DNA from: Planctomycetota bacterium
GTDB taxonomy: Bacteria > Planctomycetota > GCA-002687715 > DRQF01
NCBI GenBank assembly: GCA_027001995.1
Contig: JALTLO010000197.1
Coordinates: 14,781-78,780, forward strand
Direction: 5' to 3'
Length of the DNA: 64,000 nt
The notes under the pieces are model-generated. The model saw only the letters and a program-made list of their open reading frames with translations, was not told the DNA's origin and searched no databases. The number at the start of each line of letters is the position of its first letter. The stretch's first letter is position 1. Shown here piece by piece: positions 18,316 to 64,000 of the stretch. The position numbers were made by a program, and so were the translations under genes.

Positions 18316-19112
18316 TGCGTATTCAGGCAACTCATTCTTCCTTCGGATACGGGGAAGGACCCATCGTCCGAGGTGTTTCCTTGGAGGTTCGAGAGGCAGA
18401 GCTCCTGACCATCGTTGGACCAAACGGAGCTGGCAAAAGTACCCTCATCAAGGGGCTTGCTGGTTTGATTTCTCCCAGCGAAGGGAGGGTTGAGGCCGCA
18501 GGAGAATCTCTTTGTGCCATGGACTTAGGAAAGCGAGCCAAAATGGTTGCTGTTCTCCCTCAGTCTTTGCGACACCTCCAGGGGATTACCGTTGCTGAGT
18601 TTGTGGCGCAAGGTCGATATGTTCATCGACCTTCCTGGCAGCATATGGGAGCAATGGACGAGGAGGTCATTGGACGATCACTTCAGCGATGTGAACTTGG
18701 AGGGCTAAAGGACCGTCCGATGAATCAACTTTCAGGTGGTGAACGTCAACGAGCAGTTTTTGCCAGGGCATTGGCCCAGGAGTCGGATATTCTTTTGGTA
18801 GATGAACCCACTGCCGCTTTGGATGGTCGCCATCAGCTTTGGATTTTCGAACAGTTAGCGTCTTTGGCCGCCAGTTCTACTGCTGTTGTGGCTGTGACCC
18901 ATGATCTTAACTTAGCAAGCCAATTCTCCCATCGGGTGGTCTTGATGGAAGATGGTGCTGTCTCGAAGCAAGGCGACCCGAAAGACGTGCTCACACCTGG
19001 CTATCTCAAAGGGCTTCTGGGTGAGAATTTCTTGACAGGCCAAGAGACGTCTTCCATCTGCCAAGAAGAGAGACCCTGGTTTATCCCTTGGCTTCCTCCA
19101 CCTTCTTCATGA
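18309..19112 (+). CDS. ABC transporter ATP-binding protein (FecE/BtuD-like)
   Basis: Walker A GPNGAGKST, ABC signature LSGGERQR, Walker B LLVDEPTAALD. Confidence 0.85.
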   Translation: MVVRIQATHSSFGYGEGPIVRGVSLEVREAELLTIVGPNGAGKSTLIKGLAGLISPSEGRVEAAGESLCAMDLGKRAKMVAVLPQSLRHLQGITVAEFVAQGRYVHRPSWQHMGAMDEEVIGRSLQRCELGGLKDRPMNQLSGGERQRAVFARALAQESDILLVDEPTAALDGRHQLWIFEQLASLAASSTAVVAVTHDLNLASQFSHRVVLMEDGAVSKQGDPKDVLTPGYLKGLLGENFLTGQETSSICQEERPWFIPWLPPPSS

Positions 19113-24200: not shown

Positions 24201-27200
24201 AGACTCGAATCCAGGAGAGGGGTGGGAATGAGGAACGGGCCTTCTGCAAAGAAGTGAGCCATGACGTGACATCTGTGGCCAGAAGCTCATCTAAGTATCG
24301 TCTCTCCAATTCCATTCGGAGATCGGCCAGTTGGCGACCTCGATCCAATGAAGGTTTTAGACTCTCTTTGATTCCTTCCCATCCAGGTTCGGTCAGTAGA
24401 TCGCGGCTACTGCCAGGGTTTTCTAAGAGCAAGGCGAAAAGACGCCTCAAGCCGTCAAGCTGGCCACGGGAGTCTGTTTCGACGTTCTCTGGTAATCCGA
24501 GCTCTTCGCCAATGGCAATGCGACTTCGGCTAAGATCCTTTTTTGACTTTTGTGCGGCTCGAACGGCTTGGTCAATATGGTCGGCTAGCTTGGGGCTCCA
24601 ATCGCTGACTTGAATCGAATGCAACAAATGGTCATTCACGGGGGCGACCATCTTGGCAGCTGTTCCTAATGAACCGGCTAACTCTCCTAATTCATCGACT
24701 TCGCTCCGGTGGATTTCATGAACGTGGGCGAGATTCAATTGGACGCGTGGCAAGTCGCCCATGTTGGCTAGTCTTGAGGTGGCTTGAAAGATGCTGAGGC
24801 CCGGGGGTCTTCGAGAATGAATCTCTTGGACATAGTCGTTGAGGTCTTTTCTACGGTCCGTGAGTTCTTCTGCTAACTCTTCCCATTCTCCTGTACTTTT
24901 GTGGGCTGTGGCGGTCATTGCTGTCTGAAGTTGATCTAAGACATGGCGTTTGCTGGTTTTCTTAGAGTGGAGCTCTAAACAACTGGACGCCAGGCCGATC
25001 TTGCTTAAGCGATCGTGAACCACGTTGAGGGCAGCCATTTTCTCTGCCACGAAAAGGACACGTTTTCCCCTCGATAGGCAATGAGCAATGAGGTTGGTGA
25101 TCGTTTGAGACTTTCCCGTTCCTGGGGGGCCTTGCAGTACGAAGGTATGACCTTGGGCCGCCGCTATAACGGCGCTCAGCTGGGATGAGTCAGCGTCCAT
25201 GGGGCAAAGATTTTCGCCAGCAGGCAGGATCTTGTCTAGTTCAGAAGCTTGAGGGTAAACAACGTTACCCTCGAATGCCGAGCCTGGGGTTTCGACCAAA
25301 TGACGTACGACTTTGCTATTGAGAAGAGAATCTTGATGGCTCTCCAAGTCTGCCCACATGAGAAACTTATTAAAGGAGAATAACCCCAGGGCACAGTTGT
25401 TGACCACGTCCCAGCGTGGCACATCCATGATGACCTTTCTGAAGTTCTTCAGAGCAAGGTCGATGTCGACGCCGTTTTCATCTTCGGGGAGCGTCTTCAG
25501 GTGATCGGTATCCAAGCCGAAGTCTTGCTTCAACTTCTCCAATAAGGTGGTATTGATGCGCGCATCCTCGTCGCCTCGCTGAAGGCGGAATCCCTCGCGG
25601 ATGCTCTTGCGCGTCAAGTGCATGGGCAAGAGAATAATGGGTGCCAATCGTTCCAGGTTGCTGCTTTCGTTTTCTTTCCAGGACAAGAATCCCAAAGCCA
25701 AGAAGAGCGTGTTGGAGCCCGTCTCTTCCAACTCGTTACGGCTGGCTCGATACAGATCCAGCAATTTGCCGTCGAGATTTTTTTCGTCGGTGTCAACATG
25801 GACGATGCGGTTGTTCAGGTCTTCAGCCAGAATCGATACTTTACTGTCTTCATGAAGGCGATCTTTCTGAATAGTCATGTCGCGGGGTGAATTGGCTATT
25901 TGCTCGCCAGGGCGCCCGCGGAGGGTGAAGGAGACGCCACCTTCCACGGCATCTTCGAACCCTCCCAAGTCGGGAATTAAGAGAGGAATATTCTTCTTGG
26001 TTGGGCGGAAATTGAGAAGACGGTTGCGGAGGGACAAGTCCAAGAGTTTTCTTTGCCATCGACGAATGCGGCTGTCTTCCTCAGGCGCTTGTTGTTCGAC
26101 AGTTGGGGCTTCGATTGCCTGAAGGGGCACGATGGTGGTGGCATCTTCGACTTCAGCTCCCAGGGTGGCCAAGTCTTCAGGAGATATCCTTGTTGTGGTG
26201 ACGCCGAAATATTCTCCCTCGCTTTCGAATTCTTGCGAGGCTTGGGGTAGTGGGCGAATCTTGAGCTTGCGGGCTCTGCGGATGTCAATGACAGCGCAAA
26301 AGTCGTCTCCGTTGTCCAGGTGTTTCCTGCCATCACTTCTGGCAACATGAAAGGGAACTAAAGGTCGATTGGCCAGTAAGGTGGACTCGAAGACAACAAT
26401 GTCTTCAACGTCGATTCGCTTGCGCAAAGAAGTCACGTCATCGATTGTTGGTTCTGGGAAACAGTGATCGCTGACCCAAGCTCCACAAAAGGCATGACCT
26501 TTGGTCAAGACGATAATGGGGTTGAGGCCGCATTGTTCCATGACACTGGCAGCGAGGAGGGAAAGGTCCAGGCAATTGCCAACTTTGTCTTGGAGAATCA
26601 CGTCCGGAAAACGGACCTTTTGGCCGTCATCTTCAAAGCTGGCTGGCACGCCCACATAACCCAAATCTTCTCGGGCCAGAGTTTCATAAATGGATCGAAT
26701 CTGTTCGATCACGCCGTTGGGGTCACCGCTTTGGTAGCCATCCAAGATCGGAATGGACTGACGCTCTTCGTGAGTGCGGACGGTCTTTCCGATGAGTGCA
26801 TTGACCCCTCGGCTGTTCGGAAGAACAAAGGCTGCTAAGACTTCCGGGAGAGTGCTAAGACCGGGCCATTCATTAAATGCCAAGACTTCAACGGGGAATC
26901 CCTTCACGGAAGGGCTCTTGCCACGAGCCGAAACAGTTACTTCTAATTCGGTTTCTTGACGTTCGGATTGCTCTTTCAGACGATCGACGTTGAGAGGCAA
27001 ACTGATGTGCTCGAGGTTGATTTCTTCTTCTGGGGCGATTCGATCCAGGCGAATGTGAAGTTCTTCTGAGAGGCCGCTACCCAATTGAATGGCGATCGTG
27101 ACATCGTCCAAGGCCTCTGAAGAGTTGACCAAGTTGAGGCGCTTCACCACCGGAACATCGTTTTGTTGCATGGCGAAATTGACCAAACGGTCGTAATCCA

Positions 27201-27354
27201 AATGGAGCTCAACAGTGGTAGGGGGCAATTCTGGGGTGGTTTCTTCCCTATTTTCCTCTAAGTCACTTGTTTGATCTGCTTGAATCGAGGAATTCACCCT
27301 ATCCCCATCTTCATTTGAGCTATTTTCGCCGATTTTGCTGTCCTGGTCTGCCAT
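21274..27354 (-). CDS. Hhe-like giant superfamily-1 (Upf1-like) helicase-nuclease: N-terminal transglutaminase-like domain, DUF4011, AAA_11/AAA_12 helicase, Vsr/DUF559-like endonuclease fold, DUF3320 tail
   Basis: Walker A GPPGTGKSQT. AAA_12 motifs SWHYRSRHEDLISFSN and VAITRARKEL. An REase-like block (ILGIECDGSNYSDSANARDRDRIRPNVLKGLGWELCRVW). N-terminal papain-like block GNCLDLSLLAASVMEQCGLNPIIVLTKGHAFCGAW. Confidence 0.75.
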   Translation of the reverse strand: MADQDSKIGENSSNEDGDRVNSSIQADQTSDLEENREETTPELPPTTVELHLDYDRLVNFAMQQNDVPVVKRLNLVNSSEALDDVTIAIQLGSGLSEELHIRLDRIAPEEEINLEHISLPLNVDRLKEQSERQETELEVTVSARGKSPSVKGFPVEVLAFNEWPGLSTLPEVLAAFVLPNSRGVNALIGKTVRTHEERQSIPILDGYQSGDPNGVIEQIRSIYETLAREDLGYVGVPASFEDDGQKVRFPDVILQDKVGNCLDLSLLAASVMEQCGLNPIIVLTKGHAFCGAWVSDHCFPEPTIDDVTSLRKRIDVEDIVVFESTLLANRPLVPFHVARSDGRKHLDNGDDFCAVIDIRRARKLKIRPLPQASQEFESEGEYFGVTTTRISPEDLATLGAEVEDATTIVPLQAIEAPTVEQQAPEEDSRIRRWQRKLLDLSLRNRLLNFRPTKKNIPLLIPDLGGFEDAVEGGVSFTLRGRPGEQIANSPRDMTIQKDRLHEDSKVSILAEDLNNRIVHVDTDEKNLDGKLLDLYRASRNELEETGSNTLFLALGFLSWKENESSNLERLAPIILLPMHLTRKSIREGFRLQRGDEDARINTTLLEKLKQDFGLDTDHLKTLPEDENGVDIDLALKNFRKVIMDVPRWDVVNNCALGLFSFNKFLMWADLESHQDSLLNSKVVRHLVETPGSAFEGNVVYPQASELDKILPAGENLCPMDADSSQLSAVIAAAQGHTFVLQGPPGTGKSQTITNLIAHCLSRGKRVLFVAEKMAALNVVHDRLSKIGLASSCLELHSKKTSKRHVLDQLQTAMTATAHKSTGEWEELAEELTDRRKDLNDYVQEIHSRRPPGLSIFQATSRLANMGDLPRVQLNLAHVHEIHRSEVDELGELAGSLGTAAKMVAPVNDHLLHSIQVSDWSPKLADHIDQAVRAAQKSKKDLSRSRIAIGEELGLPENVETDSRGQLDGLRRLFALLLENPGSSRDLLTEPGWEGIKESLKPSLDRGRQLADLRMELERRYLDELLATDVTSWLTSLQKARSSFPPLSWIRVFLTKRALKPFVRGSLADTDTLVLDLGRIQKLREEERQLAEICDQEKRFFGHHWRGARSDWQKLQEIIAWAESFRQELAQLSHNADWVAGGFRERAIRLAVEDSDQLIGPSSLRQDMDTFLNDLLQLDHRLEALDNIVHFDKLAAFGSENDEGYFDRLGKTLDNLLDGRRDLRDWCHWSHLMARAQEKGLEELGKSLGDGSLAGENALKVFKKSLLEDWLNQQLEDSLLLRRFNSLEHERKIAAFAALDQKMISLSSEVIKSRINANLPGFSKEASAKSEVGILQRQLKLKRRHMPIRRLFESLPDLLPRLKPCLLMSPLSVAQYLSTDYPRADIVVFDEASQIPVWDAIGALARGESAVIVGDSKQLPPTSFFRTQDDEDDDPDSDMVEEVESILDECEAGGFTSLNLSWHYRSRHEDLISFSNHHYYNNRLMTFPSPGDTNNHMGVHFVQVEDAHYDRAKTRTNKNEAKAVVSDVLRRLTDPQLSQDTIGIVAFSQAQQNCIEDYLDEARREHPEIESFFGEDVAEAVFVKNLENVQGDERDIILFSICYGPDADGRVSMNFGPLNREGGERRLNVAITRARKELRVFSTLRHEQIDLSRSRALGVAHLKSFLEYADRGHVALPSNLGQRGLREAESPLNEAIAKRLRERGYKVSLHVGSSSQPIDLAIHDPDNADTFILGIECDGSNYSDSANARDRDRIRPNVLKGLGWELCRVWSGDWLQDPERVLEAIEAKLVEKSDSPPPLTEEQELANELEAEENSASITDDEEGEHLKLKLVEAVEIYRPTVIPKSNLGAEALYDENQEDAVRQVITSILVQESPVSLNLVCRRLMTTLGIDRLTSRVRNRVTTLIAELPEGEKPKIFDGVYFLGDDEPSNYRKFRTAALGEIPRQADDIHPIEIANACKRVMEEQIALPLTDLPKETARMLGFPRLGSKVKAAMDKGIEEILTKGWGILDDGQVRLPRQTPKQDEV

Positions 27355-52099: not shown

Positions 52100-52879
52100 T
52101 TAGTAGTCGAGGCCCAACTTCTTGAGCTTGGGAGTGATAGTGTAGCGGCAATAGGGATTCGCGTTTTTCTTCCGTCGGTAGTAGTCCTGGTGTTCTGCCT
52201 TTGCCTTCCAGAAGTGGCTGGCCTCGGTGATCTCCGTTACGATGGGGTCTGCGAATGCCCCAGACTTTCCTACTTTCATCTTGGAGTCTTCAGCGATTTC
52301 TCTCTGCTCAGGGCTGTGATAGAAAATCACTGAGCGATATTGAGTCCCTACGTCGTTGCCTTGACGGTTGAGAGTTGTAGGGTCGTGGAGTTTCCAGAAC
52401 CATCCCAGGAGCTCACGGTATTTGATCTTGCTTGGATCGAAGTGCACTTGGACCACTTCCGCATGACCGGTGGTGCCCCGGCAAATGTCCTCGTAGCTTG
52501 GATCGTTCAGGTGCCCACCCATGAATCCGGATTCAATCTTGGTGACACCTTCTACTTGTTGCAAAACAGCTTCGATGCACCAATAGCATCCGGCACCAAG
52601 TGTGGCGATTTCGTCGTGGGAAGTTTGTGGACTCATTTTCTTGGTTTCCTTGGGCCGAGGATTGTTGTTGGTGGCAGTGTCTTCTGGCTTGGAGCCGCAA
52701 GCAAAGAGAAAGCAACTAACGAAGGTGAGGGTGACAACGAATATTCTGAACATAACATTCCTTACTGGGCGCGATGACTTGAAGCCTATGATAGCTGATA
52801 CACCCAAGATCGCCATATTGTTGCATGTTCGATGAGGATGGGAGGCGGTTTTTTTGACCGCAGAGGTTTCAGCCCTCAA
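52100..52879 (-). CDS. msrA: Peptide methionine sulfoxide reductase A (secreted/lipid-anchored)
   Basis: GAGCYWC active-site motif and the conserved C-terminal region. N-terminal hydrophobic/lipoprotein-like leader. The true start may be the internal Met near 52751. Confidence 0.85.
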
Positions 52880-55865
52880 GTGCTGCTAATGTCTGCCAGA
52901 AATTGAGCCAGCGTTGTCGCTCCTCAGAGGGCAAAAATACTGGGAAATTTGGCCCATGGCATTCGGTCAAACGGGGGTCGGCGAGCCAAAGGCTTCGCTC
53001 TCTTTGAATGACAAATGGGGTTGATCCGCTTAAGCCAGCTTCATTGGCATCCAAAAATCGAGAAGCGGCAGAAAGGGCTCGTTCCCAGAGTTTGGCCTGC
53101 ATGTCTGAATTGATGTTCTCTTGTCGTGCCAACCATAGAAGACTTGCTAACGCATCTCTTTCGATTCCTCTGGGTTGAGGCCCAAGGGTGCCACGGGGGG
53201 GAAGGCTGCCTTGACGTCCTGGGCCACGGCGTCGTCCCCGGGCAATGGCATCCAGCCAAGCGTTGCTCGCTTCGTTGGCCAGTTTGTTCCAGGTGAGAGT
53301 GCGGGCTCGGTCAATGGAGCCCCGCAGGGAAGGGGTGTCAAGAGGTCGGCCCATTTTCCTGAGAACTTGCAAATCTTGAATTCTTTTCCTGAGGCGGCTG
53401 AGCCTGATGGATTTCTTGTGGCCATCAATAACCTTCAAGGCGCCTTCTAAATTGCCTTGATCTGCTAAGGCTCTGGCCCATGTTGCCGGGAGTCCTTCAT
53501 GGAGTCCCCCTAAGTCGATTCCAGCTTTTGCCGCTTTGATGGAAGCTGCGAAATCCCCAGCCGCCAAGTTCGCCATGGCCAACCGTGGCCACAACTCGTC
53601 GTGTTCCGGATGAATCCGAGCTGCAGTTCGCAAGAACTCCAATTCGGTTTTTGCCGAAACCTGAAAGTAAATGTCGCTCAGGGTACGGTCTAAATTTTCT
53701 CTCTTGACGCGGTTCCCTCCGTACATCACTTCCACGGCGTTCTTGGTTTCCCCCGATCGCAAAAGAGCAATGACCAAGTGCTTTCTGGCGAAAACGCTTC
53801 CAGGTTGGAGTGAAAGGGCAATCCAGGCGTGTCTCGTCGCCATATCGATGTCCGCTTGTGATCGTTGATCGGCAAGGGGAACACCCAATGGGCGATTGCG
53901 GCTGGCTAACATGGCGATGTGGTGGTTGATCCAAAAGTCATCCGGGTGGGCCACGAAACCTAACCACAAAACATGGAGAGCTTCTTGACGTTCGTTTTCC
54001 CGAACCAAGCTGATGGCCAAAAGGAGGATGCTTTGGGTGTTTCGTTTCTCTAAACCTTTCTCCCTGGCCAATTCCAAGAGAGCTTTTCGATCGTTCTCCA
54101 AAGCCACAGAGCGCAGGCGACGGCGCCAAGGATCTGTGTCCAAGAGTTGGCTGGTGCTGACGAGCTTGGACCAGAGTGATTCAGGCCCTTGGGCTTTCAT
54201 GTTTCTCGTCGAGGCGGATCGCCCTCCGGCTTGCCGTTCTCGGGCGGCCCAGTCGTCTAAAGCTGCCAATATTTTTCTTCGCAAATAGGGCGGTTGGGGG
54301 TCAAGTCTTCGAAAAGCAGATTCTGGGGAGTGCTTTTCCATGTCGATCCCGAATGTGGTGAATGCGGCGGCGTACTCCTTGCGGCCAACATTCGGGTCGT
54401 CAATGGGTAACTGACGGATGTGGTCGATTTCCTTGGCGAAAGTTTCCTGAGCCAGGGATGCCTTTTCTTTGGCTAACGCCGCCTTCTTGTGGGAGGACAA
54501 TTGCTCGCGGGTGAGGGCAAGCTTGGTATGGAGGTCTTTCGGTCCATTGTCTCGCAGCAGAATAAGATCGGCCCGCCTGAGTGCTTCTTCCATGGCATCC
54601 CAGGATTTCTCCTGTGATCTCAAGTTCGCCGTTCGGAGAGCCCCTTCAAAATTCGTTCGCATTTCGATGAGGTCTTCGTTGCGGGCAGTGATCCAATTCC
54701 ACCATAAACCACCGCTCACCAGCAGAACCAAGATGACCAAGGCACCCAAAGCCATTGTGAGTCGCCTTGCTTTGCGCTCTTCGATGAGTTTGTGGTGGGC
54801 GGCTTGGGTTTCTATTTTCGCCCCTTGGAGGTCTTCTTCTAATTTGTCGATATAGCTGGCAACCACATCAGCGACGATAAAAGCGTTTCTTGGGCGCGAT
54901 GCAACCACCGGCTCCAAACACCAAATGGACAGTTCTTTGATTTCCCTTGGCCCGTCAGCCGCGGAAATCCGTGTCACGGCGTCTTTCATATCCCCTTTGG
55001 CCGCAATTGTCGCTGCATGTACGCCACTCTCTGGGAGGTGAGGTGGGGCTCCCGTGAGTATTTCGCAGAGGATGCCCCCTAAGGCGAAGACATCGCAGCG
55101 TTCGTCGATTTCATCGATTTCGCCCCGGGCTTGCTCCGGGGACATGTAGCCAGGAGTGCCCAAGACGGAACCACTCATGGATTCAGAGCTTCCACTGCTG
55201 CTGCGGATGGTCCTCAGTGAATTCTGGTTTCTTGGTTGTTTGTTGGGTGTGCTCTGATTCGGGTTCTTGATGAGCTTGGCAAAGCCCCAGTCCAAGACCT
55301 GCACTTCGCCGAATGCTCCGATCATGATGTTTGATGGTTTGAGGTCGCGATGAATGACACCACGGGCGTGAGCGAAGGAGATTGTCTGACACAAAGAACT
55401 GAATATTTGGATCAGATGGCCAAGATTCTCTTCGACGGTTCTTCGTCTTTTCAAAACATCGGTGAGGGTTTCGCCCTTGACCAGCTTCATGACAAAGAAA
55501 GGGCGGTCCCGTTCGTCTAAACCAGTTTCATAAATGGGCACGATGCCTGGGTGCTGGAGTTGGCCGGCAATCTGGGCTTCTTCAAGAAAACGAGCCATGG
55601 CCGAGTTTTCGTCGATCCGGTCGCGACGGATAACCTTGATGGCGACGTCTCTTTCTAAGCGATCATCTCGGGCGCGATAGACAATGCCCATACCACCTCG
55701 GGCAATCTCGTCCAGCAAACGAAATCGACCGCACCAACCGTTGTGCTCCGTCTCTTCTTCCTCATCGTCGTTTTGGGAAAAGACTTCCCCCAATCCCAAG
55801 TCCCAGACAGATTCCACGTCTTCTTCTTCGAAGGCTGACTCGTCTTTGTCTTCTTCGTGACTCAT
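52869..55865 (-). CDS. Ser/Thr protein kinase with TM segment and TPR-like C-terminal domain
   Basis: [31 protein letters not shown] and SPEQ kinase motifs. The start abuts the stop of the ECF sigma gene. Confidence 0.85.
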
Positions 55866-57184: not shown

Positions 57185-60055
57185 ATGAATGAGGAATCAC
57201 AACACGAGAATCTGGTGCGCCAGACAGTCCGTCAGTTGAGAAATCTCTCTCTTAGAGCTGAAAGACGGGAGGTTTTGGACGTACTCCGCTTGGCAGACGA
57301 GGCGGCCTATTCTGAGGTTATGGAACTCATGCGTTTGGACCCCACTCTTCAGTTGGGCTCAGCCCACTCCCATGCTGACAATCTGAGTGATTTGACCTTT
57401 GTTGGCGAAAAGGTAGAGGATGATGGGGGCGTCGGGGTCCTTCCTGCAGCGATGCCTCAGACTCAGGTGGGGGAGTTTCGCATCATCAGGCAGATTGGTA
57501 CCGGTGGCATGGGGCTGGTCTATGAAGCAGAGCAAGAAAATCCGAATCGCCGGGTTGCCCTGAAAGTGATGCGTGCGGATTTGATGAGCGAGGGTCTCCG
57601 AGAGCGATTTCAGTTCGAGGCGGAGATCTTGGGGCGCTTAGATCATCCAAATATTGCCAGAATCTTCGCCAGTGGATGGCAGGAAACAGCCGTCGGTAAG
57701 CAGCCTTGGTTCGCTATGGAATTAGTCGCAGGTTTGAGCATTCTGGCCTATGTCCAGGAAGAGAATCTGAGCTTGGAAGAGAAGGTTGCCCTATTTTTGG
57801 GGGTGATTGAAGGGGTTCATGGGGCTCATCAAAGAGGCGTTATACATCGAGATTTGAAACCAGCGAATGTGATGGTCAATGACGAAGGCCGGGTAAAGGT
57901 CTTGGATTTCGGACTTGCCAAGCTGGCAGATTCCACGATGGATGCCATGAAGACCCAGACCGGGCAATTGGTGGGCACTCTCAACTATATGAGCCCAGAG
58001 CAGGCCGGAGGGGATTCTGATGAACTCGATGTTCGAACCGATGTCTACTCTCTCGGTTGTGTACTCTATGAACTTCTGAGTGGTGAAGTCCCGGTGGACA
58101 CCCGGGGCCAAAACCTGACCAGGTCGATTGTCGAGATTCAAGAGAAGACTCCAGTTGAACTCGGTATCATCAACCCGGCATGTCGCGGCGATCTGGCACT
58201 CATTGTGAGCAAGGCCATCGCTAAGGACAAAGAAATGCGCTACGGATCGGCCGCCGCCTTGGGAGATGATCTCCGTCGATTCTTGGCCAATGAAGCGATC
58301 GTCGCTAGGCCTCCTTCCGCGTGGTATCAGCTCAGGAAACTGGGGCAAAGAAATCGCGTGGCGTTTCTTGCGGTTGCGGGCGTGTTAGTTGCGATCATTG
58401 TTGGGGGTGTCGTATCGTTGAAGTTTGCTGTGGAGGCGGAAGAACACGCCCGGATCGCCGAGAGCGAAAAACAGCGGGCGGAGATGGAGTCAAGGAAGCG
58501 ACTCCGCTTGGCAGAAGAGGCGAGGCGAGAATCAGAAAGAGCGGAGGCTGAGGCGAAGGCTCGACTTAAGGCAACAGAAAGATCGAATCGATACTCCCAA
58601 TTCATCATCGAGACGTTTGCCAATATCGATCCCAATATTGCCAGGGGAAAGGAGATTTCTCTGCGTCAGGCCATGCAGGAAGTGGAGGCAAAATTCGAAA
58701 AGAGTCTGGGCGATGATCCTGAGAGTCTAGCGCGCTTACATGGTTTTTTTGCCACTATGAGTGAAAGTCTTGGTGATCCAGAGGGGGCTCTTGATCACGC
58801 GAAGAAAGCGGCCGGCCTTCTGGAGCGTTTTCCCCAAGAGACAAGAATTCTTGCCCAAGTGGAGAAAATCTGGGCTTTGAGTTTGGCGAGGCTGGGGCAT
58901 GTTGAAGAGGCGGAGTTTCATTTGAATCGGGTTGAAGAAATCCTGAAGGCTGATGGCCTGGAAGAGGGGACGATGGCAGCTACCCTCTTGGCGGACAAGG
59001 CGGAACTCTATGAGCGAATGGGGCGCTACAAAGACGGCCTTTCTCTTGCGGATAGAGCCCTTGCTCTCCGCTTGAAGATTTTCGGGCCCGATCATGAAGA
59101 TGTCATCATGAGTCGATTTATCCGAGCGTCGATCTTAACGGCTATGGAGAACTTCGACTTGGCTAAGGAAGAGGCGACTCGTTGTCTTGAATATCGTGCA
59201 GCAAACTTGCCGAGGAATCATCCCTTGGTGGCCGAGGCGCACAATCTCATGGCCCGTATTGCGGTGGGGCGGGGAGAAATTCAGTCTTCGATTGAGCACA
59301 CTCAAGCAGCCATTGCCATCCAGAAGATTGTCTTTCCTGAAGGTGGCAGACCACTCCGAGCGAATCTCATGAACTTGGGGTTTCTTTATATGCAAGAGGG
59401 GAAGCTCGAGCTCGCCAGGGAAACTTTGAAAGCGGCATTGCACGCTTACGAGACCTCTGATGGTCAACAAGATCCAGTGGGGTTTTCCGTCTGTTACATC
59501 ACTCTCTCGGATATCTATGACCAGCAAGGGGAATTGGGATTGGCTTTGGATGCCATTTCTCAGGCGGTGGCCTTGCTTCAGTCTCACCCTGGAGTGGCCC
59601 CCATCAATTTGGCTCACGCGCTTAGTCGCAAAGGATCATACTTGTCCGCTAAGGAGTCGGAACCGCTCTACCGACAGGCTCGGGACTTGTTCAGGAAGTC
59701 GGAATCGAGGACATCGCCCAATGCCTTGACAGCGTCTCGTCACCTCACGGCTGCTCTCATGAAGCAGGAGAAGTTCATAGAATGCCGCGACCTCTTAGAG
59801 GAGTTGCGAACTGAAATTGACAGTGCCAAGAACATCCCATTTCGGGAACGCATGGCAATTCATGTCAATCTTGGACTTACCTATGACAAACTGAAAATGT
59901 TTGCCAAGGCCGAAGAGTCTCTCCTCTATATTTACCGGCTTTGCCAAGAAGCTGGCCCACCCGCAGCCAGATCTTTGGCCGCGGTGAAGAAGAACCTCTT
60001 CGATTTCTACAGACGCTTGGGCAAGAAAGAAAAAGCAGCCAATTTCAAACCCTGA
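57185..60055 (+). CDS. Ser/Thr protein kinase with TM segment and TPR repeat C-terminal domain
   Basis: GTGGMGLVYEA, ALKVM, HRDLKPANVMV, DFGLAK and SPEQ. Long TPR-like tail. Confidence 0.85.
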   Translation: MNEESQHENLVRQTVRQLRNLSLRAERREVLDVLRLADEAAYSEVMELMRLDPTLQLGSAHSHADNLSDLTFVGEKVEDDGGVGVLPAAMPQTQVGEFRIIRQIGTGGMGLVYEAEQENPNRRVALKVMRADLMSEGLRERFQFEAEILGRLDHPNIARIFASGWQETAVGKQPWFAMELVAGLSILAYVQEENLSLEEKVALFLGVIEGVHGAHQRGVIHRDLKPANVMVNDEGRVKVLDFGLAKLADSTMDAMKTQTGQLVGTLNYMSPEQAGGDSDELDVRTDVYSLGCVLYELLSGEVPVDTRGQNLTRSIVEIQEKTPVELGIINPACRGDLALIVSKAIAKDKEMRYGSAAALGDDLRRFLANEAIVARPPSAWYQLRKLGQRNRVAFLAVAGVLVAIIVGGVVSLKFAVEAEEHARIAESEKQRAEMESRKRLRLAEEARRESERAEAEAKARLKATERSNRYSQFIIETFANIDPNIARGKEISLRQAMQEVEAKFEKSLGDDPESLARLHGFFATMSESLGDPEGALDHAKKAAGLLERFPQETRILAQVEKIWALSLARLGHVEEAEFHLNRVEEILKADGLEEGTMAATLLADKAELYERMGRYKDGLSLADRALALRLKIFGPDHEDVIMSRFIRASILTAMENFDLAKEEATRCLEYRAANLPRNHPLVAEAHNLMARIAVGRGEIQSSIEHTQAAIAIQKIVFPEGGRPLRANLMNLGFLYMQEGKLELARETLKAALHAYETSDGQQDPVGFSVCYITLSDIYDQQGELGLALDAISQAVALLQSHPGVAPINLAHALSRKGSYLSAKESEPLYRQARDLFRKSESRTSPNALTASRHLTAALMKQEKFIECRDLLEELRTEIDSAKNIPFRERMAIHVNLGLTYDKLKMFAKAEESLLYIYRLCQEAGPPAARSLAAVKKNLFDFYRRLGKKEKAANFKP

Positions 60056-60115: not shown

Positions 60116-62542
60116 TCATATCGTTTTTTCCCGTTGGGGCAAGGTGCGGATCATGAGGAAGGGAATGATGAGGATGACTGCGCCTACCACATAGGGGCTT
60201 GCATAGCTGAATCGCCAATAGAGGAGTCCCCCCAGGACAGGACCAACAGTTCGCCCCAAAGCACCGATAGAGCGATAGACACCGATGATCCGACCTTGCT
60301 CGTGTTCCGGAGCATAGAAGGAAACCAAGGACGTGAGACAAGGGATGACCATGGCAGAACCGGTGGCCATGAGGCTAAGCCCGACATAGAGCAAAAAGAC
60401 GCTTCCCAAGTTGCCGGCCATGGCAATCAAAATGAGCCCAGGGATGAGAATCTTGAGCCCCTTTTGGGTGACGACTGATTCACCGATCAATGCTGCCTTT
60501 CGTCTGACGTAACCTCCTTGTACCATCGATAGGACGACACCAATGAACACGAAAAGCATGCCGTTTTCTGCCGCGCTGTAGTCCAGCTTTTCGAACGTCA
60601 AGAAGGTCAGCATGTTTTCGGCGGCACCAAAAGCCGAAAGGAAAATGAAATTGACCCAAACGACGGCAGATACCCCAGGATAGCTTTCCATGTGGAAGAG
60701 CTTGATGGGGTTGATGGTGCGATAGAGTTTACCTTTGCCTCGTTTCTCGGGAGGAAGAGTCTCTGGGAATTTTCTCAGGACGAAAACAAAGTTCCAGACG
60801 CAAAGGAGAAAAGCGATCAGAGCCGGAGCAGAGAAGGGGTTGATACCCCAATCGGAGCCTCCACTGAGCCACTGGTGAAGAGGAATAAATGCGGCGCTAA
60901 GTCCGCCAATTGCCGGCCCCAAGATGAATCCGAGACCAAAGGCAATGCCAATGATGGCCATACCTTTGGAGCGAGTTTGCTCGGTGGTGGTATCAGAAAC
61001 CGCTGCAGTGGCTGTTGTGATATTGCTGCCCATGAGACCGGAGAGCAAACGTGAAATGACGAGCAGCAAGAAGCTGCCAGAAAACACCCAAATCAAATAG
61101 GCCACAGCATTGCCGAGAATCGAGAAGAGCAAGATGGGGCGGCGACCGACGCGGTCGGACACAGCTCCAAAGACTGGAGCCATGGCGAATTGAAGAAAGG
61201 AGTAGAGGAAGACTAAGAGTCCGCCGAATAGGGCCATAGTGGCTTTTGGGTTGTCTGAACCTCCGGTGATGCCCCGAATTCCTTCCATGAGGGCACCGAA
61301 CAGACCGGTCTCACCTTCTATGGCATTGTAGTAGTTGAGCATCTCTGGGAAGAGGGGAAACATGATGGAGAAACCGATGAGATCGATGAACAAAGTCAGG
61401 AACATCGTTTTCAGAACACTTCGGTCTTTGGGTGAAAGGGCTCCGTCAGGATACTTGTCTAACCCAAGGTAGGGGCATGTCTCGCATTGCTTGGGGGCGT
61501 GGCAACACCCCTGTTCGGGAACTTCAATGGGACAAGCACGGGGAATCGGGAGTTCTGGGGAAGTAGGTGTTGCTGAAGTAGACTCATCCTGAGGTAACAT
61601 GACATCTTTGGCAAAGTCCTGTGCCCAATCCTCATCGTCATTGAGGCATCTCACCACATGGAACTCGCTCCCACCATGTCTCAAGAATATCTCTCTCAGG
61701 CCGATACCTACCTCTTCTTGGGTTTCTAAATTGTCGACCACGAATGCTGGGCAAACCACGGTGATTTTCTTGACCCCATTTTGGGCCATCTGGATGATTG
61801 TCTCTTCCGTACTTGGTGCTAACCAAGGTTCCCGACCGAATCTTGACTGGAAGGTGAGGTGAGTGTGTTTCGGATTGTGCTTGGTTCCCTGTGCTAAGAG
61901 GGTGGCGGTTTCGACGCATTGATCGAAGTAGGGGTCGCCTCCTCGGATGCGGCGGATGGGATAGCCATGAAAAGAGAAGAGCAATTCTTCAGGAGGATCC
62001 GCTTCGAGGCTCTCGTTGATCTTCTGGACTGTGTTGTTGATATAGGCCGGACTCTTGTGGAAGTTCTCGACAAAGGTGATCTCCATTGGCCCTATTTCTC
62101 TCAGCGCCTTGTCGAGGGCATCTCTGCAAGAAAGTGTGGTGGCTTCGCAAAACTGAGGAAACATGGGAATCACCCGGACATGCTCGCAACCCCTGTCCTT
62201 TAGTTCTCTCAGTTGTGAGGTGACGGAAGGGGGGCTGAGAATGTAGGAGAAGGCTAGTTCTATTTGCGTTCCATCAATGTGGGTTTGAAGCTTCTCAACA
62301 AATGATTCCGTAAACTGAAACAGCGGAAAGGTGGAGCCAGTCCAAATGCTTCTGTAGGCCGCGGCCGATTTGGGGGAGCGAGAAGGGAGGATGAAGAGGT
62401 TCAGCACCAGTTTCCACACCAAATCTTGTTTGTCGACCACACGGGGGTCGCCAAGAAATTCTCGGAGGTATTCCTTCACATCGCTGACTTGGGGGCTTTT
62501 GGGAGAGCCCAATTGAATCAAGAGAATACCGAGTTTCTTCAT
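60116..62542 (-). CDS. hemH: Ferrochelatase (N-terminal ~330 aa, with Cys-rich C-terminal extension) fused to an MFS transporter (C-terminal ~430 aa)
   Basis: The N-terminus matches ferrochelatase (LLIQLGSP..., conserved His/Glu regions). The linker CPIEVPEQGCCHAPKQCETCPY resembles the 2Fe-2S ligand cluster of some ferrochelatases. The C-terminal half has 12 TM helices and MFS motif A GAVSDRVGRRP. Confidence 0.7.
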   Translation of the reverse strand: MKKLGILLIQLGSPKSPQVSDVKEYLREFLGDPRVVDKQDLVWKLVLNLFILPSRSPKSAAAYRSIWTGSTFPLFQFTESFVEKLQTHIDGTQIELAFSYILSPPSVTSQLRELKDRGCEHVRVIPMFPQFCEATTLSCRDALDKALREIGPMEITFVENFHKSPAYINNTVQKINESLEADPPEELLFSFHGYPIRRIRGGDPYFDQCVETATLLAQGTKHNPKHTHLTFQSRFGREPWLAPSTEETIIQMAQNGVKKITVVCPAFVVDNLETQEEVGIGLREIFLRHGGSEFHVVRCLNDDEDWAQDFAKDVMLPQDESTSATPTSPELPIPRACPIEVPEQGCCHAPKQCETCPYLGLDKYPDGALSPKDRSVLKTMFLTLFIDLIGFSIMFPLFPEMLNYYNAIEGETGLFGALMEGIRGITGGSDNPKATMALFGGLLVFLYSFLQFAMAPVFGAVSDRVGRRPILLFSILGNAVAYLIWVFSGSFLLLVISRLLSGLMGSNITTATAAVSDTTTEQTRSKGMAIIGIAFGLGFILGPAIGGLSAAFIPLHQWLSGGSDWGINPFSAPALIAFLLCVWNFVFVLRKFPETLPPEKRGKGKLYRTINPIKLFHMESYPGVSAVVWVNFIFLSAFGAAENMLTFLTFEKLDYSAAENGMLFVFIGVVLSMVQGGYVRRKAALIGESVVTQKGLKILIPGLILIAMAGNLGSVFLLYVGLSLMATGSAMVIPCLTSLVSFYAPEHEQGRIIGVYRSIGALGRTVGPVLGGLLYWRFSYASPYVVGAVILIIPFLMIRTLPQREKTI

Positions 62543-62623: not shown

Positions 62624-63043
62624 TCACTTAGAATCACAGGACTTGTTGGTGAGTCCATCCAAGCGCGCATTTGTTAAATGGCCTTTTATCAACTCTTGAA
62701 GTTGAACGAAGACCTGTGTCACCGCACAACCCCCACTGGCAGGACAATTGCCTTCGACTTGAGTCTCACAGACGTTCATGGCCAGAGGACCTTCGAGAGC
62801 TTCAAGAATTTGGAGGAGGTCAATTTCCTTGGCTGGACGTCCCAGAGAATAACCACGCTTGGCTCCTCGATGGGCTTGAACAATACCAAAGCGGGTCAGG
62901 GACTGAAGGATGTTTGATAAGTAGTTGGCTGGGGCCCCAATTCCTTCAGCGATATCCACCAGAACGACGGGGCAATGCTCACTTTGCTCCGCTAAGAAGA
63001 CAGTGGCACGAATGGCGTATTCCGTGCCGCGATTGATCTGCAT
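62624..63043 (-). CDS. Rrf2-family transcriptional regulator (NsrR/IscR-like, three Cys ligands)
   Basis: N-terminal wHTH (GTEYAIRATVFLA...). A C-x7-C-x5-C cluster (CETQVEGNCPASGGC). Divergent from a nitric oxide reductase gene. Confidence 0.8.
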   Translation of the reverse strand: MQINRGTEYAIRATVFLAEQSEHCPVVLVDIAEGIGAPANYLSNILQSLTRFGIVQAHRGAKRGYSLGRPAKEIDLLQILEALEGPLAMNVCETQVEGNCPASGGCAVTQVFVQLQELIKGHLTNARLDGLTNKSCDSK

Positions 63044-63122: not shown

Positions 63123-63151
63123 AGTCACTCAACTCACTCACTTGAGTGACT
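63123..63151. promoter_or_regulatory. Perfect 10-bp inverted repeat AGTCACTCAA-n9-TTGAGTGACT in the Rrf2/qNOR divergent intergenic region; candidate Rrf2 (NsrR-like) operator
   Basis: Direct reading. It lies 39 bp upstream of the qNOR ATG. Confidence 0.5.
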
Positions 63152-63189: not shown

Positions 63190-64000
63190 CATGAACCTCA
63201 TGTCGTGGATAGACAAACGTCAGCAATGGTGGAAGGTCTTTGTCATCATCTTCACCATCAGCATCAGTGTCGTGGGATATATTGGTTATCAGACTTACGA
63301 ATATGCTCCCCCTCTCGCTGATTTCCGCTCCGACACCGGTGAGCTTGTTTTTTCTGGCAAAGCCATCACGGATGGTCAACAAATCTTTCTGCGTTATGGG
63401 CTTATGGACTATGGAACTTTCTTAGGCGACGGAGCACTTCGGGGCCCAGATTTCACGGCGGAGGCTCTTAATCGCGCAGCCAAGGCGATGAACAAGTTTC
63501 ATGAGGCTGAGTGGTTGGAGAAGATGCCTGACGAGGAGAATCGAAAGGTCATTGTTCAATCACTTGTGCAGGCTGAGATCAAAGAAAACCGCTACGACGA
63601 AGTCAGCAACACAGTGACTCTGACGAAGGCTCAGGTTGCGGCCTGGGAGGACTTGCTTCAATTTAATACTGAGAGGTTTGCCGAGGGCGGTCCTTTGGCG
63701 GGCAAGGAAGCCTTTAAGCCGGAAAACTACATCACTGACCCACAAGAAATCGCGGATCTCACGGCTTTCTTCTTTTGGGGTGGGTGGCTCTGCGGGGCGG
63801 AGCGGCCAGGCTTTGACTACAGCTATACCCAGAATTGGCCTTTTGATCCTCTTGCTGGCAACGCTCCCGCTGCGGGGGTGATGTTCTGGAGCGTGATTGG
63901 CGGGTTGGTATTGATTCTATCCATGGGGCTTGTGTTCTACTTGTACGGCAAGCTCGATCGGGAATCTGTTTTTGAAGCTCAAGAATCCAAGACGCCACCG
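63190..64000 (+). CDS. norZ: Quinol-dependent nitric oxide reductase (qNOR, NorZ/NorB-like), N-terminal part; 3'-truncated by window edge
   Basis: An N-terminal TM helix, then the qNOR-specific periplasmic domain. The block FFFWGGWLCGAERPGFDYSYTQNWPFDPLAGNAP parallels Neisseria NorB FFFWTSWSASTNRPDETFTYTNNWPHEPLINNVP. Not in the ORF track because it runs off the end. Confidence 0.75.

What the first reader, a model, noticed from the sequence alone, without database searches (positions are those of the whole stretch)
60116..62542. Single ORF fusing ferrochelatase (with Cys-rich linker) to a 12-TM MFS transporter
The N-terminal ~330 aa is ferrochelatase. A cysteine-rich segment (C-x8-CC-x5-C-x2-C) reminiscent of the 2Fe-2S motif of some ferrochelatases leads directly into a full MFS transporter carrying motif A (GAVSDRVGRRP). 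I do not know of such a fusion being a standard architecture. It could couple the last step of heme synthesis to export or import of heme or porphyrin. It lies next to an NsrR-like regulator and a heme-copper NO reductase, which would be heme consumers. A missed stop codon from an assembly error, merging two adjacent genes, is the alternative explanation.
Basis: partly seen in the sequence, partly recalled or inferred. Interest (0 to 1): 0.5.

Follow-up and report, generated by a model that had tools for sequence, protein, structure and literature searches.

The report
Ferrochelatase fused to MFSD10-like transporter
This is a real, evolutionarily conserved gene that joins the last enzyme of heme synthesis to a complete membrane transporter closely related to the poorly understood human transporter MFSD10, which suggests, without proving, that this transporter family handles heme or porphyrin.

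Summary
The 808-aa ORF at 60116-62542 (-) is confirmed. It has a ferrochelatase domain (residues 3-311, Pfam E 1e-87; hemH equivalog above cutoff), a 55-aa linker, and a 12-TM MFS (370-808). It is not an assembly artefact: 118 of the 120 best database homologues, 43-74% identical, have the same ~800-aa two-domain architecture. They include isolate genomes (Lentisphaera profundi, Halobacteriovorax) and MAGs labelled Bacteriovoracaceae, Oligoflexia and Planctomycetota. One Lentisphaerales MAG carries the two halves as adjacent separate genes.

The MFS half is not a generic pump. It matches human MFSD10/TETRAN end to end (E 1e-57, 31% identity, TM 0.81) and has DHA1 efflux motifs A and C. AlphaFold gives confident rigid packing of the two domains (pTM 0.79 and 0.73).

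The Cys-rich segment is a clade-specific 18-aa insert (CC-x5-C-x2-C, invariant where present). It fits the published [2Fe-2S] ferrochelatase motif and co-varies with core Cys132, which lies next to the human ligand position C196.

The Rrf2/qNOR neighbourhood is not conserved elsewhere. Coupling of heme synthesis to outward tetrapyrrole transport is the best mechanistic guess but is untested. No paper describing the fusion was found; databases call it simply "ferrochelatase".

The parts
60116..62542 (-). Complete 808-aa ORF (stop codon included): ferrochelatase - linker - MFS transporter
61598..62542 (-). Ferrochelatase (HemH/PpfC-type) domain, residues 1-315. Catalytic His192 (61967-61969) and the Glu273 helix N-L-E-T-x-x-E are invariant in the family.
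   Evidence: Pfam PF00762 E 9.7e-88; TIGR00109 above cutoff; invariant columns; Foldseek human FECH TM 0.76
62147..62149 (-). Cys132 (FPQFCEATT), a core cysteine one residue from the position aligned to human [2Fe-2S] ligand C196; candidate additional cluster ligand
   Evidence: alignment; co-occurrence with the Cys insert in 18/19 versus 4/99 sequences
61436..61597 (-). Inter-domain linker, residues 316-369. Coil, but modelled with pLDDT 83-93 from residue 331.
61457..61510 (-). Clade-specific 18-aa insert G-CC-x5-C-x2-C-P-Y-x-G (residues 345-362; Cys346, 347, 353, 356), a putative [2Fe-2S] site. A variable fifth Cys337 lies at 61532-61534.
   Evidence: motif definition in PMC8529089
60119..61435 (-). 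12-TM MFS transporter domain (residues 370-808), MFSD10/TETRAN-like and DHA1-type, with a helical hairpin in the periplasmic TM1-TM2 loop
   Evidence: PF07690 E 2.6e-47; PDB 6s4m E 1.4e-57; Foldseek top hit; helices
61136..61168 (-). MFS motif A, GAVSDRVGRRP (residues 459-469), in the cytoplasmic TM2-TM3 loop; G459, D463, G466 and R467 are invariant
60902..60931 (-). MFS motif C ('antiporter motif') G-x3-GP-x2-GG in TM5 (residues 538-547); G538, G542, P543 and G546 are invariant
   Evidence: the interpretation as an antiporter signature rests on established MFS literature (own knowledge)
62624..63043 (-). Rrf2-family regulator (139 aa, C92-x7-C100-x5-C106), 81 bp upstream on the same strand; probably co-transcribed with the fusion in this genome only
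   Evidence: PF02082 E 2.2e-28; below the NsrR and IscR cutoffs; no terminator-like or promoter-like site in the gap
63123..63151 (.). Perfect 10-bp inverted repeat AGTCACTCAA-N9-TTGAGTGACT in the divergent Rrf2/qNOR intergenic region; candidate operator
   Evidence: adjacent promoter-like hexamers
63191..64000 (+). 5' part of a divergent 795-aa qNOR-type nitric oxide reductase (runs off the window)
   Evidence: gene call and Pfam PF22085 + PF00115 on the identical contig L001

Best explanation
The gene encodes a single inner-membrane protein. A catalytically intact, proteobacterial-type protoporphyrin ferrochelatase sits on the cytoplasmic face and is held rigidly against the N-terminus of a fully functional 12-TM MFS transporter. 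That transporter belongs to the DHA1 branch and specifically to the MFSD10/TETRAN subfamily. This much is shown.

In the Lentisphaera-type clade, which includes this window, the linker has acquired an 18-residue CC-x5-C-x2-C insert. Together with core Cys132, this most likely binds a [2Fe-2S] cluster at the place where animal, actinobacterial and Caulobacter ferrochelatases carry theirs. This is inferred from the motif, its position and covariation.

The most likely working mechanism is inferred, not shown. The enzyme makes protoheme at the membrane surface and hands a tetrapyrrole directly to the attached proton-antiport-type exporter. That tetrapyrrole could be the product heme, or surplus protoporphyrin IX when iron is short. 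The exporter moves it into or across the inner membrane, which would avoid free cytoplasmic heme or porphyrin. The Rrf2/qNOR neighbourhood is a local feature of this genome and not part of the system.
For: Fusion real and conserved:
- 118 of the 120 best hits are 782-835 aa with PF00762 + PF07690, at 43-74% identity, in several phyla and in isolate genomes.
- There are about 10 clusters at 50% identity in 1.84 billion representatives.
- The identical protein is found in two assemblies.

Enzyme intact:
- The hemH equivalog scores above its cutoff.
- H192, E273 and E277 are invariant.

Transporter functional, not a decayed anchor:
- The MFS half is more conserved than the enzyme half (median 50.5% versus 43.9% identity to distant fused members).
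- Motifs A and C, D387 and R498 are invariant.
- 48 core residues are shared with 68 standalone relatives, and 45 of the 48 are identical in human MFSD10.

MFSD10 relationship:
- PDB 6s4m scores E 1.4e-57 and 199 bits over the full length, against 52 bits for the next transporter.
- It is the Foldseek top hit, with 31% identity and TM 0.81.
- MFSD10 is classed as DHA1 and reported to move organic anions (PMC8154325 and PMC5627054).

Topology: positive-inside loops and 12 helices place the enzyme in the cytoplasm.

Rigid coupling: pTM 0.79 and 0.73 for two proteins 45% identical, one with and one without the insert, with linker pLDDT 83-93. By my arithmetic this requires an inter-domain error of about 7 A.

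Split form keeps adjacency.

Cluster:
- The motif fits C-X(1,11)-C-X(1,11)-C with an XCCX grouping in the C-terminal tail.
- The four Cys are invariant wherever the insert exists.
- C132 co-occurs with the insert.
Against: - No direct evidence exists for the transported substrate or for the direction of transport.
- Standalone members of the same MFS subfamily are not next to heme genes. L010 has GGDEF and MetH neighbours, and L013 has coaD, pgsA and pgpA neighbours.
- The transporter core shows no fusion-specific specialisation, so its substrate may be something general and unrelated to heme.
- No heme-pathway gene is adjacent in any of eight loci.
- Gram-negative bacteria already have dedicated heme delivery to the periplasm for cytochrome c (own knowledge), so a further exporter is not obviously needed.
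- The Cys132/insert covariation largely reflects one clade, so it is not many independent events.
- Whether these genomes have a second, ordinary hemH was not tested.
Confidence: 0.4

Rival explanations
1. Membrane anchoring or co-expression only. The MFS half carries out its own housekeeping transport, the same as its standalone relatives and unrelated to tetrapyrroles. The fusion merely fixes ferrochelatase at the membrane, where protoporphyrin IX is produced and heme consumed, or is a neutral gene-fusion accident that became fixed.
For: - The transporter core is indistinguishable from standalone relatives, with only 4 conservative fused-specific positions.
- Standalone relatives have no heme-related neighbours.
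- Ferrochelatases are commonly membrane-associated, and cyanobacterial and plant enzymes carry a C-terminal CAB membrane segment (PMC8529089; PMC3563542 listed).
- The genes can be separated, as in the L005 split.
Against: - A single helix would be enough for anchoring.
- The fusion has been kept for a long time in at least two phyla, with a well-packed, confidently modelled interface (pTM 0.79 and 0.73).
- The split form retains immediate adjacency.
- Another ferrochelatase fusion found here is to a heme-related partner (HemN/HemW-like, P0206), as is the published HemH-ChdC fusion.
Confidence: 0.27
2. Substrate supply. The MFS half imports something that ferrochelatase needs, either exogenous protoporphyrin or heme salvaged from prey or the environment, or an iron chelate, and delivers it directly to the enzyme. 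This would be analogous to the mitochondrial iron-importer/ferrochelatase complex.
For: - Many carriers are obligate predators (Halobacteriovorax, Bacteriovoracaceae).
- In Halobacteriovorax DA5 the next genes are bacterioferritin and Bfd.
- The broader clade is suggested to include SLC46 (PMC5627054), and PCFT/SLC46A1 is a weak PDB hit at 34 bits.
- The mitochondrial precedent is from my own knowledge.
Against: - Antiporter motif C is invariant.
- All scored relatives are efflux pumps: TetA family; MFSD10 classed as DHA1, plus NorA and MdfA.
- There is no similarity to ferroportin-type or known siderophore-import MFS families in the scans.
- The bacterioferritin neighbour is convergent and is seen in one locus only.
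Confidence: 0.15
3. Assembly or annotation artefact: two adjacent genes merged by a missed stop codon or a frameshift.
For: One related MAG (L005) has the two halves as separate genes.
Against: - 118 independent full-length fused homologues down to 43% identity, including a complete isolate chromosome (L. profundi CP117811).
- The identical ORF occurs in two assemblies.
- The linker is conserved in frame and is modelled with high confidence.
Confidence: 0.01
4. The Cys-rich insert is not an Fe-S site. It could instead be a structural zinc knuckle, a disulfide pair, or a transient iron or heme hand-over site at the enzyme-transporter junction.
For: - All four Cys lie within 11 residues in a C-x2-C-P context that is also typical of zinc ribbons (sequence).
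- The insert is dispensable for ~84% of the family.
- The published motif is permissive, and 18 motif hits in that survey were discounted.
Against: - The position (a C-terminal tail just after the core), the XCCX grouping and the co-varying core Cys next to the human C196 position all match known cluster-bearing ferrochelatases.
Confidence: 0.3

Closest known systems
Protoporphyrin ferrochelatase HemH/PpfC of Gram-negative bacteria (PF00762, TIGR00109)
   Same: Full-length domain above the curated cutoffs. The catalytic His and the Glu helix are conserved. It has the proteobacterial-type sequence features, and the closest standalone relatives are gamma- and betaproteobacterial enzymes at ~38-43% identity.
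   Different: It carries ~490 extra C-terminal residues forming a complete transporter. A 2021 survey of 482 ferrochelatases found lengths of only 270-683 aa and a single fusion, to ChdC.
Human MFSD10 / TETRAN (PDB 6s4m; TC 2.A.1.2.73, DHA1)
   Same: End-to-end similarity (E 1.4e-57, 31% identity, TM 0.81), including the helical TM1-TM2 loop. 45 of the 48 family-conserved core residues are identical.
   Different: It is bacterial and covalently fused to an enzyme. MFSD10 is a standalone eukaryotic protein reported to move organic anions and NSAIDs, with no recorded heme link. Orthology was not tested reciprocally.
[2Fe-2S] motif-containing ferrochelatases (human, S. pombe, M. tuberculosis, C. 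crescentus: C-terminal type)
   Same: A cysteine triplet or quartet in a tail directly after the core, fitting C-X(1,11)-C-X(1,11)-C, plus a core Cys at the human C196 region.
   Different: The spacing CC-x5-C-x2-C is its own variant. The tail is not a free C-terminus but a linker leading into TM1. The cluster itself is unverified.
Other ferrochelatase fusions and extensions: C. acnes HemH-ChdC; cyanobacterial/plant ferrochelatase with a C-terminal CAB helix; the HemH-radical SAM/HemN_C fusion (P0206)
   Same: A C-terminal addition to ferrochelatase of a partner from heme handling or of a membrane segment.
   Different: Here the partner is a 12-TM secondary transporter, not a pathway enzyme or a single pigment-binding helix.
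Tet(A)-family tetracycline/H+ antiporters
   Same: The best NCBIfam transporter hit. Shared features are the TM1 L-D-x-x-G...P...P motif, motif A and motif C, and the 12-TM DHA1 layout (sequence).
   Different: It scores 151 bits against a family cutoff of 475, so it is not a Tet protein.

Membership tests
Ferrochelatase (HemH; PF00762 / TIGR00109) | Profile match above the curated cutoff over the whole domain | tested here: met
   PF00762 294.6 bits (cutoff 27), profile positions 1-310 of 317. TIGR00109 251.9 bits (cutoff 124.6).
Ferrochelatase (HemH; PF00762 / TIGR00109) | Catalytic His (human H263 / B. subtilis H183) and the conserved acidic helix (human E343) | tested here: met
   H192 in FSFHG aligns with human H263, and E273 in NLETQEE aligns with human E343. 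Both are invariant in 62 and 118 sequences.
Ferrochelatase (HemH; PF00762 / TIGR00109) | Class II chelatase fold | tested here: met
   The AlphaFold model matches human FECH (TM 0.76-0.77) and B. subtilis CpfC (TM 0.82), normalised to the target.
Ferrochelatase (HemH; PF00762 / TIGR00109) | Fe2+ insertion into protoporphyrin IX (versus coproporphyrin III) | not testable with these tools
   Only indirect evidence: weak scores to the Firmicute-type models NF009095 and NF000689 (52-54 bits, cutoffs 408-455), and the nearest standalone relatives are proteobacterial.
[2Fe-2S] motif-containing ferrochelatases (Weerth, Medlock & Dailey 2021) | C-X(1,11)-C-X(1,11)-C located in the C-terminal tail or the internal insertion | tested here: met
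   C347-x5-C353-x2-C356, with C346 forming an XCCX grouping, 30-45 residues after the core. Criterion.
[2Fe-2S] motif-containing ferrochelatases (Weerth, Medlock & Dailey 2021) | A fourth cysteine ligand (distal core Cys such as human C196 / Mtb C158, or the second Cys of XCCX) | tested here: met
   Both options are available: the CC pair, and Cys132 one residue from the column of human C196. Cys132 co-occurs with the insert in 18/19 versus 4/99 sequences.
[2Fe-2S] motif-containing ferrochelatases (Weerth, Medlock & Dailey 2021) | Physical presence of a [2Fe-2S] cluster | not testable with these tools
   Needs spectroscopy. Cys-Cys distances could not be read because model coordinates are not exposed.
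Major facilitator superfamily, DHA1-type (12 TM) | 12-TM two-bundle fold with cytoplasmic N- and C-termini | tested here: met
   12 TM helices in the model. K+R counts in the cytoplasmic loops are 3, 2, 8 and 3, against 2, 0 and 1 in the periplasmic loops. Foldseek hits to MFSD10, NorA and MdfA.
Major facilitator superfamily, DHA1-type (12 TM) | Motif A (G-x3-D-R/K-x-G-R-R/K) between TM2 and TM3, and motif C (G-x3-GP-x2-GG) in TM5 | tested here: met
   GAVSDRVGRRP at 459-469 and GFILGPAIGG at 538-547. The key residues are invariant.
MFSD10/TETRAN subfamily (TC 2.A.1.2.73) | Full-length similarity clearly above that to other MFS families | tested here: met
   199 bits to 6s4m against 52 (3wdo), 37 (NorA) and 34 (PCFT). 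Top Foldseek hit at 31% identity.
MFSD10/TETRAN subfamily (TC 2.A.1.2.73) | Reciprocal-best or phylogenetic orthology with eukaryotic MFSD10 (versus MFSD9 / MFSD14) | not tested
   Only PDB sequences were available as eukaryotic comparators. The NJ tree used MFSD10 as outgroup.
MFSD10/TETRAN subfamily (TC 2.A.1.2.73) | Organic-anion efflux activity | not testable with these tools
   Biochemical assay required.
Tet(A)/(B)/(C)/(D) tetracycline efflux MFS (NF012174) | Score at or above the curated family cutoff | tested here: not met
   151.1 bits against a cutoff of 475.
Known heme/porphyrin MFS carriers (FLVCR/SLC49; HCP1-PCFT/SLC46A1) | Significant specific sequence similarity | tested here: not met
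   No FLVCR chain at E<=0.01. PCFT (7bc6) gives only 34 bits, E 1.2e-7, a generic MFS-level match.
Ferrochelatase with C-terminal CAB (chlorophyll a/b-binding) helix | A single C-terminal CAB helix with the E-x2-N-x-R motif | tested here: not met
   The C-terminal part is a 12-TM MFS, and the Pfam scan gave no chlorophyll-binding domain. Motif definition.
NsrR (NO-sensing Rrf2 repressor) - the upstream neighbour | Equivalog score above cutoff; three-Cys Fe-S site | tested here: inconclusive
   The Rrf2 superfamily is met (94.8 bits, cutoff 73.3). NsrR scores 47.6 against 182 and IscR 69.9 against 207.55, both not met. C92, C100 and C106 are present (sequence). Adjacency to qNOR is suggestive only.

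The most novel reading that the evidence does not exclude
The fusion acts as a 'Rosetta stone' showing that the whole MFSD10/TETRAN transporter family, from bacteria to humans, moves heme or protoporphyrin. The fused protein would then be a heme synthase-exporter machine that passes nascent heme straight from the ferrochelatase active site through an MFS channel into or across the membrane. That would be the missing first step of heme trafficking after synthesis. In the Lentisphaera clade an Fe-S cluster at the junction might gate the step in response to iron, redox state or NO.
Probability: 0.22. Interest if true: 0.8.

Novelty: new variant of a known kind. Interest (0 to 1): 0.55.

Why it matters
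How heme leaves ferrochelatase and reaches its client proteins without poisoning the cell is a long-standing open question in bacteria and in mitochondria. A covalent and apparently rigid union of ferrochelatase with a complete efflux-type transporter, conserved across at least two bacterial phyla, gives a concrete candidate for that hand-over. It can be expressed and assayed as a single polypeptide.

The transporter half is a close relative of human MFSD10, an atypical SLC whose physiological substrate is unclear. The fusion therefore also gives a specific, testable hypothesis (tetrapyrrole transport) for an orphan human carrier family.

The clade-specific Cys insert adds a new C-terminal variant to the unexplained [2Fe-2S] sites of ferrochelatases.

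On the practical side, hundreds of database entries named only "ferrochelatase" hide a transporter domain.

Tried and rejected
- Assembly artefact: rejected.
- Conserved functional link to NsrR/qNOR: rejected as general. Seven other loci (L003-L007, L088, L089) lack it.
- Heme-pathway neighbours: none in any locus, nor among the 20 window ORFs of 220 aa or more that were scanned.
- L087 (Gammaproteobacteria MAG) looked like a long fusion in the genome scan. It is a standalone hemH with an unrelated weak MFS hit upstream.
- The afdb50 fold library was unavailable. Model coordinates are not exposed, so the domain interface and Cys geometry could not be measured.
- The main review of prokaryotic heme synthesis is not held, and one literature query was malformed.
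- Literature searches for the fusion or for an MFSD10-heme/porphyrin link found nothing relevant. This is absence in the held library only.
- Conserved cysteines C209, C264 and C299, and the common Cys at position 271, were considered as cluster ligands and rejected. They are conserved across the family regardless of the insert, and, from memory, resemble typical proteobacterial HemH residues.
- The NJ tree is unsupported by resampling. I use it only to say that the fused sequences sit within a larger standalone family.
Full report
**1. Observation**

The window has one uninterrupted ORF at 60116-62542 on the minus strand (808 aa, ATG start).
- Pfam places a complete ferrochelatase domain at residues 3-311 (E 9.7e-88) and an MFS_1 domain at 380-763 (E 2.6e-47).
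- NCBIfam's hemH equivalog TIGR00109 scores 251.9 bits against a cutoff of 124.6.
- The cysteine pattern is exactly as described (C337-x8-C346 C347-x5-C353-x2-C356; DNA), and motif A GAVSDRVGRRP is at 459-469.
- The upstream neighbour is an Rrf2 regulator (62624-63043, -). Beyond it lies a divergent 795-aa qNOR that runs off the window.

**2. Not an artefact**

- A search of 5.8 billion clustered proteins returned 579 hits at E<=1e-10.
- Of the best 120, 118 are 782-835 aa and carry both PF00762 and PF07690, at 43-74% identity and ~100% coverage.
- Named sources include Lentisphaera profundi (a complete chromosome), Halobacteriovorax spp., and MAGs labelled Bacteriovoracaceae, Oligoflexia, Planctomycetota and 'Deltaproteobacteria'.
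- The identical protein is encoded on contigs from two assemblies.
- An exhaustive HMMER pass over 1.84 billion 50%-identity representatives found about ten fused clusters. Below them come many standalone MFS proteins (420-465 aa, up to 51% identical) and standalone ferrochelatases.

The fusion is therefore the normal form of this gene in these lineages.

**3. A natural split**

In one Lentisphaerales MAG (L005) the two halves are adjacent separate genes: a 325-aa ferrochelatase, 99 bp, then a 449-aa MFS, in the same frame.
- The gap holds three stop codons (TAG, TAG, TAA), so this is not a one-base error.
- The Cys-motif codons are still intact between the last stop and the first canonical start, which suggests a recent fission.
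- The halves can exist apart, but they stay together.

**4. The ferrochelatase half**

- The catalytic His192 (FSFHG, aligned with human H263) and the N-L-E273-T-x-x-E277 helix (aligned with human E343) are invariant in 62- and 118-sequence alignments.
- The model superposes on human and B. subtilis ferrochelatases (TM 0.76-0.82, normalised to the target).
- The nearest standalone enzymes are gamma- and betaproteobacterial, at 38-43% identity. Firmicute-type models score far below their cutoffs.

I read this as a protoporphyrin-type HemH. Substrate specificity itself was not testable.

**5. The transporter half**

- The best NCBIfam hits are Tet(A)-family pumps, but far below cutoff (151 versus 475 bits).
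- Against all PDB sequences the top hit is human MFSD10/TETRAN (6s4m): E 1.4e-57 and 199 bits over residues 19-443 of 451. The next transporter (3wdo) scores 52 bits, NorA 37 and PCFT 34. No FLVCR chain appears.
- Foldseek agrees, with 6s4m first at 31% identity and TM 0.81.
- MFSD10 is listed as TC 2.A.1.2.73 and classed as DHA1. It is reported to transport organic anions and to confer NSAID resistance, and its structure was listed as unpublished in the review consulted (PMC8154325 and PMC5627054).
- The fused MFS keeps motif A, the TM5 motif C G-x3-GP-x2-GG, Asp387 in TM1 and Arg498 in TM4, all invariant. In the MFS literature motif C marks H+ antiporters/exporters (own knowledge).
- The MFS half is more conserved than the enzyme half: median 50.5% versus 43.9% identity to the distant fused members.
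- Of the residues that are at least 95% conserved in fused proteins, 48 are also at least 80% conserved in 68 standalone bacterial relatives, and 45 of those 48 are identical in human MFSD10. Only four positions are fusion-specific, and those are conservative changes.

The transporter is therefore functional and not specialised by the fusion. This argues against a decayed anchor. It also means the substrate is whatever the whole family carries.

**6. Topology and packing**

- The model shows 12 TM helices plus a helical hairpin in the TM1-TM2 loop.
- Loop K+R counts follow the positive-inside rule, with the N-terminus of TM1 in the cytoplasm, so the enzyme is cytoplasmic.
- AlphaFold2 gives mean pLDDT 90.6 and pTM 0.79 for the window protein. 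For the 45%-identical Halobacteriovorax protein, which lacks the Cys insert, it gives pLDDT 88.0 and pTM 0.73. Linker pLDDT is 83-93 in both.
- By my arithmetic (d0 about 9.7 A at this length), two well-folded but freely hinged domains would give a pTM near 0.55. The observed values imply an inter-domain error near 7 A, that is, a defined interface.

**7. The Cys-rich segment**

- It is an 18-residue insert (G-CC-x5-C-x2-C-P-[YF]-x-G) found in P0001-P0018 and P0021 only, about 16% of the family. All four Cys are invariant wherever the insert exists.
- All the other sequences have a shorter linker of about 35-46 aa with at most one cysteine.
- The 2021 survey by Weerth, Medlock and Dailey defines the ferrochelatase [2Fe-2S] motif as C-X(1,11)-C-X(1,11)-C in a C-terminal tail or internal insertion, and notes that both Cys of an XCCX grouping act as ligands (PMC8529089). 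The window's motif meets this definition in the tail position.
- Known enzymes add a distal core ligand: human C196, M. tuberculosis C158 (PMC3205055).
- In the HMMER alignment the window's Cys132 (PQFCEATT) is one residue from human C196 (PQYSCSTT).
- Cys132 is present in 18 of 19 insert-bearing sequences and in only 4 of 99 others. This is mostly one clade, so it is not many independent events.

A [2Fe-2S] site is the most likely reading. A zinc or disulfide role is not excluded.

**8. Context**

- In this genome the order is qNOR (divergent), then Rrf2, an 81-bp gap, then the fusion. There is no terminator-like site in the gap. A perfect 10-bp inverted repeat lies in the divergent promoter region.
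- None of this recurs elsewhere. L. profundi, two other Lentisphaera-type contigs, the split locus and three Bdellovibrionota loci all have unrelated neighbours. The Bdellovibrionota loci share QueF/TatA upstream, and one has bacterioferritin and Bfd downstream.
- The regulator is an Rrf2-family protein but scores below the NsrR and IscR cutoffs.
- No heme-pathway gene was found near any copy, or among the 20 scanned ORFs of the window.
- Standalone MFS relatives in Acidobacteria and Opitutales also have no heme neighbours.

**9. Mechanism**

- Shown: a cytoplasmic, catalytically intact ferrochelatase is covalently and apparently rigidly joined to a functional DHA1/MFSD10-type transporter.
- Inferred: the transporter is an exporter (motif C; all scored relatives are efflux pumps). 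Its passenger would be a tetrapyrrole made or used by the enzyme, either heme or excess protoporphyrin IX. Both are amphipathic organic anions, like the reported MFSD10 substrates.
- I put about 0.4 on this reading. The main rivals are anchoring or co-expression with an unrelated transport function (about 0.27) and substrate import or supply (about 0.15). An artefact is effectively excluded.

**10. Novelty**

- The sequences are public but labelled only 'ferrochelatase'.
- The 2021 family survey recorded lengths of 270-683 aa and a single fusion, HemH-ChdC.
- Five literature searches found no description of this architecture and no MFSD10-heme link. The held library is incomplete, and the main review could not be read.
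- I class this as a new variant of a known kind: ferrochelatase with a C-terminal partner. It has moderate-to-good interest because it offers a tractable handle on post-synthesis heme trafficking and on an orphan human carrier family.

Noticed in passing
L005 3095-3210 (Lentisphaerales MAG GCA_022446985.1): Three in-frame stops (TAG, TAG, TAA) split ferrochelatase from the MFS. The C-x8-CC-x5-C-x2-C codons remain perfectly intact downstream of the last stop but upstream of the first canonical start codon (ATG 3203). This could be a recent fission, non-canonical initiation, or a problem in the MAG.
   Followed up: partly
P0206 (809 aa): A different ferrochelatase fusion: Ferrochelatase + Radical_SAM + HemN_C (a HemN/HemW-like module). 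This is a second example of ferrochelatase fused at its C-terminus to a heme-related partner.
   Followed up: partly
window 63123-63151: Perfect 10-bp inverted repeat AGTCACTCAA-N9-TTGAGTGACT in the divergent intergenic region between the Rrf2 gene and qNOR, next to promoter-like hexamers on both strands. It is a candidate Rrf2 operator.
   Followed up: partly
window 16310-19112 (+): Three-gene ABC uptake system (Peripla_BP_2, FecCD permease, ATPase) of the iron-chelate/heme/B12 import type. The substrate is unknown.
   Followed up: no
L004, L007, L089 (Bdellovibrionota-type loci): QueF and TatA lie divergently upstream of the fusion in all three loci, which indicates stable vertical inheritance. 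In Halobacteriovorax DA5 (L004) bacterioferritin and a Bfd-type ferredoxin lie immediately downstream, convergent.
   Followed up: no
L005 184-2044 and L006 6031-7922: In two Lentisphaera-type loci a ~510-aa Ser/Thr protein kinase and a ~100-aa ORF directly precede the ferrochelatase gene on the same strand. The window itself is rich in large Ser/Thr kinases: 13435-16248 and 57185-60055 have TPR regions, and 52869-55865 is a third.
   Followed up: no
L013 5600-7440 (Opitutales): A standalone MFSD10-like MFS gene overlaps the stop of coaD and sits beside pgsA and pgpA (gene names from my own reading of the translations). This hints that the standalone family may be tied to lipid or cofactor metabolism and not to heme.
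   Followed up: no
Precomputed Pfam column; P0129: Several family members also hit PF03209 (PucC); P0129 scores 30.3 bits against a cutoff of 21. From my own knowledge, PucC is an MFS family implicated in delivering bacteriochlorophyll, another tetrapyrrole. This is probably clan cross-talk, but it bears on the substrate question.
   Followed up: no
window 21274-27354 (-), 1136-2638 (-) and 3300-5480 (-): A 2026-aa ORF was not analysed. Two ORFs of 500 and 726 aa have no Pfam match at E<=1e-5.
   Followed up: no
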